From positions 32,320,001-32,384,000 of the forward strand of contig CP068257.2 of NCBI GenBank assembly GCA_009914755.4: 64,000 nucleotides of DNA, read 5' to 3'. Position numbers and translations under genes: made by a program. Every line of letters starts with the position of its first letter. Positions within the stretch are counted from its first letter, which is position 1. This document shows positions 8,101 to 47,428 of this stretch, in pieces. The notes under the pieces were generated by a model. The model did not search any database. It worked only from the letters and a program-made list of their open reading frames with translations, and was not told where the DNA came from. Origin of the DNA: the human T2T-CHM13v2.0 reference genome, Homo sapiens.

Positions 8101-8626
<526 letters not shown>

Positions 8627-12389: not shown

Positions 12390-12790
12390 CCAGATTTTCT
12401 GGGGCTCAGTCCTGGGTTTGTCACTTAACTGTGTCACTTGGAGCAAGTCACATACCTCTGGCAGTCTCAGTTGCTCATCAGAAAAATGGGAATTTTATAT
12501 ATATATATAAAAAATATAATTATATATTTATTTATAATATGTGTATATATAATTATATGATTATAATAATCACAAATGGGATTATATATAATATATAATT
12601 ATACATTAATTTATAATATATATTTATTTATAATATATGTGTGTATATATACGCATATATACATATGTATGTATGTCTATATCTCTATCTTTCGGGTTGT
12701 TTTGAGAATTAAATGACCTAACCCATGTAAAGCCCTGTGTACCGTGCCTGGCATGTAGGATACTTCATCACTGTCACCTGTTTTTGTTGT
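12390..12790 (+). mobile_element. MIR SINE split by an internal AT-rich microsatellite expansion
   Basis: Left part '...tcagtcctgggtttgtcacttaactgtgtcacttggagcaagtcacatacctctggcagtctcagttgctcatcagaaaaatggga'. Right part 'gggttgttttgagaattaaatgacctaacccatgtaaagccctgtgtaccgtgcctggcatgtaggatac' matches the MIR 3' half. Confidence 0.65.
12495..12690. repeat. AT-rich (TA)n / (TATAA)-like low-complexity tract
   Basis: Read directly: 'atatatatataaaaaatataattatatatttatttataatat...'. It sits at the position of the MIR 'ataataatag' segment. Confidence 0.9.
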
Positions 12791-17936: not shown

Positions 17937-17988
<52 letters not shown>

Positions 17989-25099: not shown

Positions 25100-25692
25100 A
25101 GTGCTGCTCCAAGCCCCGTGCTCTTCCTTGGACACACCAGGCATGCTGCCAGCAGAGCCTTTGCATGTGCTGTTCCCTTTGTCGGGAAGCCTTTTCCCCA
25201 GCTATCTGCTCAGCTCATCCGCTGTCTCTTTCGTCCTCGCTCAGATTCCCCTTCTCTGTGAAGCCTTTCTGACCATCCTCATTAAAATCAAATAACCCCA
25301 CCCCTCCACTCTCTTGCCCATTTTCCTCATCCATTTCCCCCTAGGACTAATCACTCTCTAACATTCTCTATATATTTTTCTGATATATTTGTTTATATGT
25401 CTTGCATAAACAAAATGATTTGGTTTATGGTCTATCTCTTCTTGCTAGAATGTGAGCTCTACAAGGGTAGGGATGCTTGCTTATTTTGTCACCGTTGTGT
25501 CCCTGACTCCTAAAATGCTGACGGTGTGGCCAGCTGCATGCCCTGCTGTCTCTATTTTGAAACTCTAACAAAATTTTGGACAAGACCCTCCTCTTTCATT
25601 TTATGCTGGACCTGGAAAATTACAGAGCAGGTTCTGACTTCCAGGCACATGGTACGCATTCAATAAATAATCTCTTGAATGAATGTTGAATG
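25100..25692 (+). mobile_element. LINE-2 (L2) 3' end fragment
   Basis: '...cttctctgtgaagcctttctgaccatcctcattaaaatcaaataaccccacccc...gctagaatgtgagctctacaagggtagggatg...ggcacatggtacgcattcaataaataatctcttgaatgaatgttgaatg'. The start is uncertain. Confidence 0.5.
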
Positions 25693-25744
25693 TAGTGGTT
25701 TTCAAAGCAGATGGGAGATAAGAGGTTACTGAGTGGTTGACTGA

Positions 25745-26010
25745 ATGGAGGGAGGGCTGATCATTCATTCATTCACGCATTCATTCATTCACTAACATTC
25801 AACAAATATTTACCTGACATCCTTAGGGATTAAATTTCTGTCCACTGATAGTGAACCTCATGCATCATGTTGCACAGTCCATAGATGTGAGGGATTTTAC
25901 GAACACAACACCCTGTGATGTAGGTATGATTGTCTCCACTTCCAGATGAGGATACTGAGAAGTTAAGGCATTGCCTGAGGTCATGTGGCTAGTGGAAGCC
26001 ACAGGCAGGA
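25745..26010 (-). mobile_element. MIR/L2-type 3' end, minus orientation, tail-to-tail with the preceding L2
   Basis: 'tcattcattcattcacgcattcattcattcactaacattcaacaaatatttacctg...aggtatgattgtctccacttccagatgaggatactgagaagttaaggcattgcctgaggtcatgtggctagtggaagccacaggcagg'. Confidence 0.55.
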
Positions 26011-26840
26011 TTATCCCATGGCTGGCCAGGCTGAGCTGTAGGGGCAGCTCCTGTACTCTCAGCCTCCTCCTTCAGAATCCCTCCTCCTCACTCCCCATTC
26101 GTGGGCTGCTTCTCCCAGGATCAGGCAGCCTCTGCCCACCTTTTCTCACTTCACCCTTTCTCCTTGCAGAATTAGAAAGAATCGGCTCCAGCTATTTGTT
26201 TCTTACTGTGGATTTATCCATGTGTCACCTCTCCCAGGCAGAATTACATTCTGAAGGCATCTCTAATTGAGATTGCTCCATGGGGAAGGACTCTTAGGGC
26301 TCAGAAAGCAGGTGGTAAAGCCCTGGAGTGAGGCAGGAACCCCAAAGCCCTATGACACCCCATATAGGTACCCCCAAACCTGCCTATACTTCAGGCCAGG
26401 CCCCCAGTATAGAGATGGAAAAATAGTCCCACTTTTGGTCACAGATTCTGGAAAACTGTGAGATTCTGGGGAAATCCATTTTGAGTAATACCTTTTAGAA
26501 GAAGAAAAAAATGGAAGTAGCTTATCATAGAATGGGTTTTGTTAGACAAAGATGGCAATTCAGGAGGAAACATAAATTTAACAACTCTCAAGTATGCACA
26601 GCTGACATCTCGTAGAGCGGGGCTGGTGACTAAGCCAGAAGTTACTGTCTGCATCCTTTGTAACTTACAAATAAAAATGAGGACCAGACATTAGTTATGA
26701 AATGCATGAACAACCACTGCTCTGGGAGCCACATAAAAAGATGGTGATTCCAAACATTTAACCTTAGCATTTGTCTGTGTGGTTTCATTTGAAAATGATG
26801 GGGTGCTTGAAACTCTCAGAACTTAGAAAACTCTTAAGTT

Positions 26841-27140
<300 letters not shown>

Positions 27141-27263
27141 TAACAAATATAAGAAATAGATAAAAATATAATACATAATGAATATAATAAACAAATATAA
27201 TAAATATACAAATATATAAATATTGTATTCTATATGTAAACTCATGTATTTTATATATGAATA

Positions 27264-28037
27264 TATTATATGCATAACATAATATATTGTGTGTGTATTA
27301 TGTGCATAACATAATATATTGTGTGTGTATTATGTGCGTAACATAATATATTGTGTGTATTATGTGCGTAACATAATATATTGTGTGTGTATTATGTGCG
27401 TAGCATAATATATTGTGTGTGTATTATGTGCGTAGCATAATATATTGTGTGTATTTGTGCGTAACATAATATATTGTGTGTGTATTATGTGCGTAACATA
27501 TTGTGTGTGTATTATGTGCGTAACATAATATATTGTGTGTATTATGTGCGTAACATAATATATTGTGTGTGTATTATGTGCGTAACATAATATATTGTGT
27601 GTGTATTATGTGCGTAACATAATATGTTGTGTGTATTATGTGCGTAACATAATATATTGTGTGTATGTGTGTAACATAATATATTGTGTGTATATTATGT
27701 GTGTAACAATATGTTGTCTGTATATTATGTGTGTAACATAATATATTGTGTGTCTATTATGTGTGTAACATAATATATTGTGTGTCTATTATGTGTGTAA
27801 CATAATATATTGTGTGTCTATTATGTGTGTAACATAATATATTGTGTGTCTATTATGTGTGTAACATAATATATTGTGTGTCTATTATGTGTGTAACATA
27901 ATATATTGTGTGTCTATTATGTGTGTAACATAATATATTGTGTGTCTATTATGTGTGTAACATAATATATTGTGTGTCTATTATGTGTGTAACATATATT
28001 GTGTGTCTATTATGTGTGTAACATAATATATTGTATA
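27264..28037. repeat. Minisatellite, ~24 tandem copies of a 30-32-bp unit, in two sub-blocks
   Basis: Block 1 (27264-~27700) unit 'gtgtgtgtattatgtgcgtaacataatatatt' with 30-32-bp variants. Block 2 (~27700-28037) unit 'gtgtgtctattatgtgtgtaacataatatatt', nearly perfect for ~9 copies. Confidence 0.95.
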
Positions 28038-28789
28038 TACATTTGAAAATATTGTATATATAAAGTATATAACATAAAAATCAGAAATAAACATAAGGAA
28101 TGTAAGTATTGAAATTACATTGTGAGCTTGCTTTTTGTACTCAGACCTTCCCCACAGTGTTAGGATGGTTTCATTGGCAAATAAAAGAAACTGAACCCAA
28201 CCCAGCTTAGGACTTCAGGAAAATTGATTGAATGATTGCTTGATTGCTTCTATGATTGAAAACGCTGCCTCACCTCCAGGCCTCCCTGGCTTGATGCCCA
28301 GAGGGGCAAAAGGAGCTTCTCTTTTCTCCCAGCAGTCACATGTCAAATCCTAGATGAGCTCAGGCTGGCCTTACTTGGACACACGCCCCTCCCTTGGGCC
28401 TTTGACTTAGCAGGAAGGATGGGGGGCTAATTAGCCAGAACTTGAGGGGGCCAGACACTGTGACTGAACCCCCAGAATCAATACCATCAGCTTTGGGGAG
28501 AAGCAGCTCCCAGGAAAAAGAAACAGTAATTGCCTATAATCTTGCTTTTCTTTCCATGCTGACAAGAGACATTTTCCCTGAGACTGACAGAAAGCGCTGT
28601 GTTATAAAGAACTAGTCCTTTCTCTTAGCTGTTTTCATAATTCCAGGTGTTTTCTGTTCCAGTCAAAAGACTCGAGAAAAGAAAAATTTCCCAAGAGAGA
28701 GGATCAACTTCTTCTTTATTTTGGGAACAGTAGCTAAAATGTGGTCTCTGGACCCAGGCTAACCTAGATTTCAACACTGCATCTCCTGT

Positions 28790-35859: not shown

Positions 35860-35914
<55 letters not shown>

Positions 35915-36440: not shown

Positions 36441-36610
36441 TCCCTCCCTCCCTTCCTCCCACCCCATCCCCCTTCTTCCTTTCCTTCCTCCCTCCCTTCC
36501 TCCCTTCTCTTCCTCCCTTTCTCCCTTGTCTTCCTCCTTTTCTCCCATCCTCCCTTCCTCCCTCTTTCCTTCTTTTTTCCCTTCCTCCCGCCCTCCTTCC
36601 TTCTTCCATC
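36438..36610. repeat. Polypyrimidine (CCTTCC/CTTCCT)-like low-complexity tract (GGAA-rich on the other strand)
   Basis: Read directly: 'ccctccctcccttcctcccaccccatcccccttcttcctttccttcctccctcccttcctccc...'. Confidence 0.9.
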
Positions 36611-46865: not shown

Positions 46866-47428
46866 CAACACACACCACACCACACATACCACACACATAC
46901 CACACACACACCACACCACACACACCACACAACACACCACCCACACCACACCACAAATGACACACCACACAAACCACACCACACACACACAACACACACC
47001 ACACCATACAACACACACACTACACATCCATACCACACTACCCACACATTACACTATGTCACACCACACCCACACATCACACTACACATACACACCACAC
47101 ACACACCACATAACACCACACACACACACCACAACACACCACCCACACCACCCACACCACACGACACACCACACACACCACACCGCACACACACACCACA
47201 CCACCCACACCACACACTACACATACCACACATCATCCACACAACACCACGCACACATACCACACCACACACACACCACCCACACACTTCACACTACACT
47301 ATACCACACCACCCACATACACCACAACACACACACACACCACACACACACACCACACACACATCACACACACCCTCCTCACACCATGTACACACACACC
47401 ACACACCACACCCCACACCTCACACCCT
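46866..47428. repeat. Long degenerate (CACACC)n / (CA)n-derived cryptically simple repeat (~560 bp)
   Basis: Read directly: 'cacaccacaccacacataccacacacataccacacacacaccacacc...'. It produces the His/Thr/Pro-rich and Cys/Val/Trp-rich ORFs at 46592-47586 on both strands. Confidence 0.95.

What the first reader, a model, noticed from the sequence alone, without database searches (positions are those of the whole stretch)
27264..28037. 775-bp minisatellite of a 32-bp unit with two internally homogeneous sub-blocks (candidate VNTR)
About 24 tandem units. The first ~14 are 'gtgtgtgtattatgtgcgtaacataatatatt' with 30/32-bp length variants. The last ~9 switch to 'gtgtgtctattatgtgtgtaacataatatatt' and are almost perfectly identical to one another. 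A block of near-identical units points to recent expansion or unequal exchange, so copy number is probably variable between individuals. The unit mixes (GT)n with an AT-rich core, and the array sits in an AT-rich block.
Basis: seen in the sequence. Interest (0 to 1): 0.5.

Follow-up and report, generated by a model that had tools for sequence, protein, structure and literature searches.

The report
Ordinary human 32-bp minisatellite array
This is a real but ordinary non-coding tandem repeat in human DNA, about 24 copies of a 32-base AT-rich unit that can fold into a small hairpin. It very likely grew by copying errors, and whether its length differs between people could not be tested here.

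Summary
Tandem Repeats Finder reports one array at 27264-28034 with period 32, 24.8 copies, 92% matches and score 1157. It splits into 12 A-type units, 3 transitional units and 9 B-type units. Eight of the nine B units are identical.

- Every unit carries a perfect 8-bp inverted repeat (TATTATGT-N5-ACATAATA). Predicted hairpin stability per unit is similar to the 33-bp FRA16B repeat.
- Block A is four copies of a 94-bp trimer, with GT runs of 4,4,3 (p about 0.006).
- The A-to-B switch includes a CpG-to-TpG change.

The window is human. It holds about 35 Alus, and one stretch is 99.8% identical to host DNA in a gut-metagenome contig. I found no coding exon, no RNA family, no related array elsewhere and no paper holding the unit.

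The best reading is a neutral minisatellite built by slippage or unequal exchange. Variable copy number is plausible from general knowledge but untested, because no second allele or ape orthologue could be retrieved. Zero substitutions in block B only bounds its age to about 21 million years or less. Interest is low.

The parts
26839..27121 (-). Alu element directly upstream of the AT-rich block. Context only, not part of the array.
   Evidence: It matches about 30 other copies in the window. The reverse-complemented Alu head is read and the poly-T tail. AAAACTCT lies on both sides (26827-26834 and 27122-27129), which may be a target-site duplication. If so, the AT-rich block is not this Alu's tail.
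27122..27263 (.). AT-rich low-complexity 5' flank
   Evidence: 86% A+T over 27124-27263. TRF reports weak 9/17/22-bp periodicities at 27138-27223. It is no more unit-like than shuffled flank: score 19 against 16.2 +/- 2.4.
27264..27288 (+). Proto-unit: the palindromic core plus ATATATT tail, without the (GT)n run, and with CpA where later units have CpG
   Evidence: TATTATATGCATAACATAATATATT matches the unit at 25 of 27 positions and is the first hit of the core motif.
27289..27658 (+). Block A: units 1-12, GTGTGTGTATTATGTGCGTAACATAATATATT, organised as four copies of a 94-bp trimer with GT-run lengths 4,4,3. It holds all 11 CpGs of the array.
   Evidence: Unit table and distance matrix. Units three or six apart are closer than others (permutation p = 0.007). 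The chance of a perfectly periodic 4,4,3 pattern is 3/495 = 0.006.
27659..27747 (+). Transitional units 13-15. They already carry CpG-to-TpG (GTGTAAC) but have irregular GT/AT heads and small deletions.
   Evidence: Unit sequences. Edit distance is 2-8 to both consensus types.
27748..28032 (+). Block B: units 16-24, GTGTGTCTATTATGTGTGTAACATAATATATT. Eight of nine are identical and unit 23 (27972-28000) lacks 3 bp.
   Evidence: edit distance 0 among eight units. Autocorrelation at lag 32 is 0.91.
28033..28110 (.). AT-rich 3' flank, possibly holding one decayed unit
   Evidence: 84% A+T over 28035-28110. Alignment to the unit scores 22 against 15.6 +/- 2.8 for shuffles, which is suggestive only.

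Best explanation
This is a non-coding minisatellite in human intronic or intergenic DNA. It arose inside an AT-rich low-complexity stretch and grew by out-of-register copying, meaning replication slippage and/or unequal sister-chromatid or homologue exchange.

**Steps read directly from the sequence:**
1. A founder of about 25-32 bp survives at the 5' edge. It has the palindromic core TATTATGT-GCGTA-ACATAATA.
2. Units acquired a (GT)3-4 head.
3. One unit lost a GT, and the resulting 94-bp trimer (32+32+30) was copied four times to give block A.
4. At the 3' side a unit lost its CpG (CG to TG) and then changed GTGTGTGT to GTGTGTCT. That single 32-bp variant was copied at least nine times to give block B.

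**Inferred, not shown:**
- The 8-bp hairpin in every unit, and the fact that any unit's core can pair with any other unit's core, favours slipped or misaligned intermediates.
- The array has no sequence-specific function.
- Its copy number is probably polymorphic in humans (my estimate is about 0.75).
For: - **Tandem structure and sub-blocks:**
- **Motif confined to the array and far above chance:**
- **94-bp higher-order period in block A:** (p about 0.006-0.007).
- **Gradient of variants along the array, with CpG/TpG/CpA states:**
- **Hairpin in each unit:**
  - One unit folds at -4.5 (A) or -4.3 (B) kcal/mol, z = -3.3 and -3.9.
  - The whole array folds at -102 kcal/mol against -60.7 +/- 4.1 for shuffles, z about -10.
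  - Cross-unit inverted repeats are listed.
- **No sign of function:**
  - Stops occur in all frames. The longest open stretch is 81 aa, with no homologue among 5.8 billion proteins.
  - No Rfam match reaches more than 21 bits, against gathering scores of 80 and above.
  - No Pfam domain turned up in 500 ORFs across the window.
- **Human origin:** about 35 Alus, and window 25518-26656 is 99.82% identical to a contig from a human gut metagenome.
- **Literature:** slippage, unequal crossover and gene conversion are the accepted routes of VNTR change (PMC8096271). Duplications and deletions anywhere in the array dominate allele differences (PMC8327921).
Against: - Nothing contradicts this reading, but key parts are untested.
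- No second allele was seen, so instability is inferred from structure only.
- The hairpin stem is short, A/T-rich and weak. Variant units break it without compensation (units 4-6 and 13), so it is not maintained by selection and its mechanistic role is conjecture.
- I could not run a transposable-element library, so an origin inside an old repeat element is not excluded.
- The genomic position and nearest gene are unknown, so a regulatory effect cannot be assessed.
Confidence: 0.85

Rival explanations
1. It is a real tandem array that is now effectively fixed. It expanded millions of years ago and has the same length in essentially all people, so it is not a VNTR.
For: - Zero substitutions in block B is compatible with ages up to about 21 million years.
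- Keeping 11 of 12 CpGs in block A is compatible with ages up to about 41 million years.
- Only about one in five reference minisatellites was found variable in 2770 genomes (PMC8096271).
Against: That one-in-five figure comes mostly from short arrays that fit within a read. This array has 25 copies, 92% purity and a 224-bp run of identical units, which is the substrate on which misalignment is easiest. Several independent small indels between units show ongoing slippage.
Confidence: 0.2
2. It belongs to a dispersed family, either the internal repeat of a transposable element or a satellite present at many loci, rather than a locally born array.
For: Some minisatellites arise inside transposable elements, and PMC8096271 flags 16% of reference tandem repeats as members of dispersed, indistinguishable families. 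I had no repeat library to test this.
Against: - The core occurs nowhere else in the 64 kb.
- The exact unit is absent from three public contig collections.
- The array ORF has no homologue.
- There is no similarity to the 32-bp ape subterminal satellite pCht, and only marginal similarity to FRA16B.
- A proto-unit at the 5' edge fits birth in place.
Confidence: 0.07
3. It is a functional element, for example a length-dependent regulatory VNTR, a matrix-attachment or replication-related AT-rich element, or a source of small hairpin RNAs.
For: - VNTRs are enriched in genes and regulatory annotations (PMC8096271).
- The array is an AT-rich block with regular hairpins.
- The region is Alu-rich and therefore probably gene-rich.
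Against: - No Rfam family comes near threshold, and 8-bp stems are far too short for miRNA precursors.
- Variant units break the stem without compensatory change.
- No exon or promoter-like CpG island lies nearby.
Confidence: 0.05
4. It is a short, normal allele of an expandable hairpin-forming AT-rich minisatellite of the FRA16B/FRA10B kind, able to grow to kilobases and stall replication.
For: - The unit size of 32 bp compares with 33-42 bp.
- Predicted hairpin energy for three units is -13.5 or -12.9 kcal/mol, against -15.1 for FRA16B.
- Fourteen FRA16B copies are enough to stall forks in vitro (PMC2875025, PMC9714581).
- The reviewers of PMC9714581 argue that various AT-rich motifs may become fragile when expanded.
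Against: - The array is 73% A+T, against about 91% for FRA10B (PMC9714581).
- It is 0.77 kb long, whereas fragility appears above about 5 kb.
- The unit shares only ATAATATAT(T) with FRA16B, and about 5% of shuffles do as well.
- No expanded allele is known.
Confidence: 0.04
5. It is an assembly artefact, meaning a mis-assembled or collapsed repeat.
For: Runs of identical 32-bp units are hard to assemble from short reads. The only independent contig I retrieved stops 600 bp short of the array.
Against: The ordered variant structure (trimer periodicity, transitional units, unique junctions) is not what collapse or chimerism produces.
Confidence: 0.02

Closest known systems
Classical human minisatellites / VNTRs (tens of thousands of loci; more than 55,000 VNTRs per PMC8327921; 228,486 curated reference tandem repeats per PMC8096271)
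   Same: It has a 32-bp unit and about 25 head-to-tail copies. Variant units are ordered along the array, and blocks of identical units imply duplication by misalignment. The setting is non-coding.
   Different: Polymorphism, the defining property of a VNTR, was not observed here. Many classical hypervariable minisatellites are GC-rich, whereas this one is 73% A+T with a (GT)n head.
AT-rich minisatellites of the rare fragile sites FRA16B (33 bp) and FRA10B (about 42 bp)
   Same: The unit length is similar, the flanks are AT-rich, the units are self-complementary, and predicted hairpin stability per unit is comparable.
   Different: This array is less AT-rich (73% against about 91%) and short (0.77 kb against several kb when fragile). 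Unit sequence similarity is not convincing, and no expansion or fragility is known.
Higher-order repeat organisation, as in alpha satellite
   Same: Block A repeats as a multi-unit block of three units (94 bp), and units in equivalent positions are more alike than neighbours.
   Different: There are only four copies of a tiny block. There is no centromeric context and no sequence relation.
pCht / StSat, the 32-bp AT-rich subterminal satellite of chimpanzee, bonobo and gorilla
   Same: Both have a 32-bp unit and are AT-rich.
   Different: There is no sequence similarity to the published consensus gatatttccatgtttatacagatagcggtgta (PMC12758386). pCht forms arrays of hundreds of kilobases and is described as absent from human.

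Membership tests
Minisatellite (tandem repeat, unit about 10-100 bp) | Unit length within the range | tested here: met
   TRF period 32. Individual units are 27-32 bp.
Minisatellite (tandem repeat, unit about 10-100 bp) | Many head-to-tail copies with no spacer between them | tested here: met
   24.8 copies that abut one another. The core motif occurs 21 times against 0 expected.
VNTR | Copy number differs between individuals | not testable with these tools
   No other allele reaching the array was found. The one independent human contig covers only 25518-26656.
VNTR | Internal evidence of repeated duplication or deletion events | tested here: met
   A 94-bp trimer present four times, a 32-bp variant present nine times, and several unit-specific indels.
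AT-rich fragile-site minisatellites (FRA16B/FRA10B) | Unit of about 33-42 bp | tested here: met
   32 bp, against 33 bp and about 42 bp (PMC2875025, PMC9714581).
AT-rich fragile-site minisatellites (FRA16B/FRA10B) | Very high A+T content (about 91% for FRA10B) | tested here: not met
   The array is 73% A+T. Only the flanks reach 84-86%.
AT-rich fragile-site minisatellites (FRA16B/FRA10B) | Single strands predicted to fold into hairpins | tested here: met
   -13.5 or -12.9 kcal/mol per three units, against -15.1 for FRA16B. The whole array has z about -10. These are predictions only.
AT-rich fragile-site minisatellites (FRA16B/FRA10B) | Alleles expanded to several kilobases that show cytogenetic fragility | not testable with these tools
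   This allele is 0.77 kb. No population or cytogenetic data are available.
AT-rich fragile-site minisatellites (FRA16B/FRA10B) | Unit sequence related to the FRA16B consensus | tested here: inconclusive
   Best local score is 20-22 against 14.4-15.1 +/- 3 for shuffles, and 21-28 of 500 shuffles do as well. The only shared stretch is ATAATATAT(T).
pCht/StSat subterminal satellite | More than 90% match to the 32-bp consensus (criterion used in PMC12758386) | tested here: not met
   The alignment is no better than shuffles, with 75-432 of 500 shuffles as good.
CRISPR-like array (considered only because the direct repeats are about 32 bp and palindromic) | Repeats separated by unique spacers, in a prokaryotic or viral genome | tested here: not met
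   Units abut with no spacers, and the window is human DNA.

The most novel reading that the evidence does not exclude
The array could be the common short allele of an unrecognised expandable, hairpin-forming AT-rich minisatellite. Rare long alleles would stall replication forks or create a rare fragile site or deletion hotspot. Alternatively, its length could tune a nearby gene as a primate- or human-specific regulatory VNTR.
Probability: 0.04. Interest if true: 0.45.

Novelty: already known. Interest (0 to 1): 0.12.

Why it matters
On its own it matters little, since the human genome holds tens of thousands of arrays like this. If it is polymorphic, it would be a usable multi-allelic marker whose internal variant map (A, transitional and B units) records how alleles arose. 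Its location is still unknown, but it could also be a candidate for length-dependent effects on a neighbouring gene. The one mildly instructive point is structural. In 770 bp it shows two modes of growth side by side: copying of a 94-bp three-unit block and copying of a single 32-bp unit. It also has a self-complementary core like those of the AT-rich fragile-site repeats.

Tried and rejected
**Naming the locus or gene**
- Rfam over the whole window at gathering threshold found only an Alu scored as SRP RNA.
- Pfam on 500 non-repeat ORFs of 45 aa or more found nothing better than E = 0.002, which is chance level for that many queries.
- A codon-usage ranking showed no outlier.
- The genomic position therefore stays unknown.

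**Getting other alleles or orthologues**
- Scans for the exact unit in the metagenome, prokaryote-genome and viral contig collections found 0 hits.
- A 3'-flank 34-mer found 0 hits in the metagenome and prokaryote-genome collections.
- Exact-protein look-ups of six flanking or overlapping ORFs gave one hit, a 1139-bp human-gut-metagenome contig that ends 600 bp short of the array.
- A homology search with the 81-aa open stretch of the array gave no hit.

**Literature and catalogues**
- No paper holds any 16-mer of the unit.
- The supplements of PMC8096271 lack it.
- Three other VNTR papers have no supplements held as text.

**Rejected identities**
- pCht/StSat.
- The FRA16B sequence family.
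- A known ncRNA or miRNA.
- Coding sequence.
- A CRISPR-like array, because there are no spacers and the DNA is human.
- The tail of the adjacent Alu, because AAAACTCT flanks that Alu on both sides.

**Not run:** I ran no further search on concatenated ORFs to hunt for an exon. The estimated chance of reaching an ape orthologue that way was under 10%.

Full report
**1. Observation**

Reading 26900-28400 and running Tandem Repeats Finder on the whole window confirm one strong array at 27264-28034. It has period 32, 24.8 copies, 92% matches, 6% indels and score 1157, by far the highest-scoring repeat in the 64 kb.

Splitting it at unit boundaries gives:

| Segment | Coordinates | Content |
|---|---|---|
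| Proto-unit | 27264-27288 | TATTATATGCATAACATAATATATT; no GT run |
| Block A, units 1-12 | 27289-27658 | GTGTGTGTATTATGTGCGTAACATAATATATT; lengths 32/30/29/27 |
| Transitional, units 13-15 | 27659-27747 | intermediate variants |
| Block B, units 16-24 | 27748-28032 | GTGTGTCTATTATGTGTGTAACATAATATATT |

In block B seven consecutive copies are identical, unit 23 lacks 3 bp, and unit 24 is identical again. The 21-nt core TATTATGTGYRTAACATAATA occurs 21 times within two mismatches. All hits are inside the array and on the + strand, against 0.00 expected from shuffles.

**2.

- **Hairpin in every unit.** Each unit contains a perfect inverted repeat, TATTATGT / 5-nt loop / ACATAATA.
  - As single-stranded DNA one unit folds at -4.5 kcal/mol (A) or -4.3 kcal/mol (B), with z = -3.3 and -3.9 against dinucleotide shuffles.
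  - The whole array folds at -102 kcal/mol against -60.7 +/- 4.1 for 20 shuffles, z about -10.
  - The core is self-complementary, so the core of any unit is also an inverted repeat of the core of any other unit.
  - Variant units weaken the stem without compensating changes: AGCAT in units 4 and 5, and deletions in units 6 and 13. The hairpin is therefore a property of the founder sequence, not something selection maintains.
- **Higher-order period in block A.**
  - GT-run lengths in units 1-12 read 4,4,3,4,4,3,4,4,3,4,4,3. This is a 94-bp trimer (32+32+30) present four times.
  - Only 3 of 495 arrangements of eight long and four short units are perfectly periodic, p = 0.006.
  - Units three or six apart are more alike than others, permutation p = 0.007.
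  - TRF itself reports periods 32 and 62 for this block, not 94, because small deletions shift the phase.
- **CpG decay along the array.** All 11 CpGs lie in block A (GCGTA). The proto-unit and unit 1 have CpA (GCATA). Units 13-24 have TpG (GTGTA). These are the two products of CpG deamination, so CG is the ancestral state. Transitional units 13-15 already carry TG but not yet the GTGTGTCT head of block B. The variants therefore form an ordered series along the array.

**3. Surroundings and origin of the window**

- Self-comparison finds about 35 Alu copies, and 14.2 kb of the window is repeated within it.
- The only Rfam gathering-level hit is an Alu scored as SRP RNA.
- A 71-aa ORF at 26439-26654 is on record on a contig from a human gut metagenome. 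That contig equals window 25518-26656 at 99.82% identity, with 2 mismatches in 1139 bp. This is the level of difference expected between two humans, so the window is human DNA.
- A minus-strand Alu (about 26839-27121) abuts the AT-rich block. AAAACTCT flanks it on both sides, so the AT-rich block is not its tail.
- No recognisable coding exon was found. Pfam on 500 non-repeat ORFs gave nothing better than E = 0.002, and codon-usage scores showed no outlier. I could not name the locus or the nearest gene.
- The array itself has stops in all frames. Its longest open stretch is 81 aa on the minus strand, with no homologue among 5.8 billion proteins.
- No Rfam family scores above 21 bits over 27050-28200, against gathering scores of 80-93 for the miRNA families concerned.

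**4. Mechanism**

The anatomy fits the standard picture of minisatellite growth by out-of-register copying, through slipped-strand mispairing, unequal crossover or gene conversion (PMC8096271). Duplications and deletions anywhere in the array are the main source of allele differences (PMC8327921).

Read directly from the sequence:
- a founder copy at the 5' edge;
- a three-unit block copied four times;
- a later single-unit variant copied at least nine times at the 3' side;
- several small unit-specific indels.

Inferred:
- The self-complementary core and the (GT)n head promote misalignment.
- The array is selectively neutral.

The age argument is weak. With 0.5e-9 substitutions per bp per year (a textbook value, not measured here), zero substitutions among 285 bp of block B has probability 0.5 at 4.9 million years and 0.05 at 21 million years. 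Keeping 11 of 12 CpGs in block A is compatible with up to about 41 million years. 'Near-identical units' therefore does not by itself mean recent on a population time-scale.

**5. Is it a VNTR?**

This could not be tested.
- The exact unit is absent from the metagenome, prokaryote-genome and viral contig collections.
- A 3'-flank 34-mer is absent from the metagenome and prokaryote-genome collections.
- ORFs touching or flanking the array are not on record.
- No paper contains a 16-mer of the unit, nor do the supplements of PMC8096271, the only VNTR paper searched whose supplements are held as text.

[quoted passage not shown] That study could not genotype arrays longer than a read. A 25-copy, 92%-pure array with a 224-bp run of identical units is, from general knowledge, far more likely than average to vary. 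I put this at about 0.75, as a prior and not a finding.

**6. Comparison with known kinds**

- It meets the structural definition of a minisatellite.
- It resembles the AT-rich minisatellites of the rare fragile sites in unit size (FRA16B 33 bp, FRA10B about 42 bp) and in predicted hairpin strength. Three units give -13.5 or -12.9 kcal/mol, against -15.1 for FRA16B (PMC2875025, PMC9714581).
- It fails the AT-content criterion (73% against about 91%). It is only 0.77 kb long, whereas fragility appears above about 5 kb. It shares only ATAATATAT(T) with the FRA16B unit, which about 5% of shuffles match.
- The 32-bp AT-rich ape subterminal satellite pCht/StSat is unrelated (consensus from PMC12758386).

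**7. Verdict**

This is a real feature, accurately described, and an ordinary member of a very large and well-known class. TRF found 1,199,362 tandem repeats on GRCh38 in the reference set of PMC8096271. An array with score 1157 in the human reference would be among them. I therefore rate it as already known in kind and almost certainly catalogued, although I found no paper about this particular array.

Interest is low (0.12). The most novel reading not excluded is an unrecognised expandable or regulatory AT-rich hairpin minisatellite, to which I give about 4%.

Noticed in passing
window 46866-47426: A complex CA/CACC-rich array of about 560 bp. TRF reports periods 2, 7, 9, 13 and 62, with scores up to 396, in the most GC-rich part of the window. 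It is another candidate length-variable repeat.
   Followed up: no
window 36441-36607: A polypyrimidine CCTT/CCCT-type tract of about 165 bp with several overlapping periods and scores up to 111. A strand-asymmetric tract of this kind could form triplex DNA.
   Followed up: no
window 12496-12682: An imperfect (TA)n tract of about 190 bp. It is an AT-dinucleotide run of the kind discussed for cruciform formation at common fragile sites.
   Followed up: no
window 17938-17988 and 35860-35902: Two (AC)n microsatellites, one of 25.5 copies at 95% purity and one of 21.5 perfect copies. Both are long enough to be polymorphic markers.
   Followed up: no
window 8181-8322: A (TTTC)n run of about 36 copies lying at the edge of an Alu copy at 8180-8617. 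It probably grew from that Alu's tail.
   Followed up: no
whole window; window 25518-26656 = L001: There are about 35 Alu copies in 64 kb. A human-gut-metagenome contig (ENA ERZ982604) is 99.82% identical to this stretch, so it is host DNA assembled in a metagenome and carries a spurious called 'gene'.
   Followed up: partly
window 26827-26834 and 27122-27129: AAAACTCT lies on both sides of the minus-strand Alu at about 26839-27121. It is probably that Alu's target-site duplication, which would show the Alu inserted next to an AT-rich block that already existed.
   Followed up: partly
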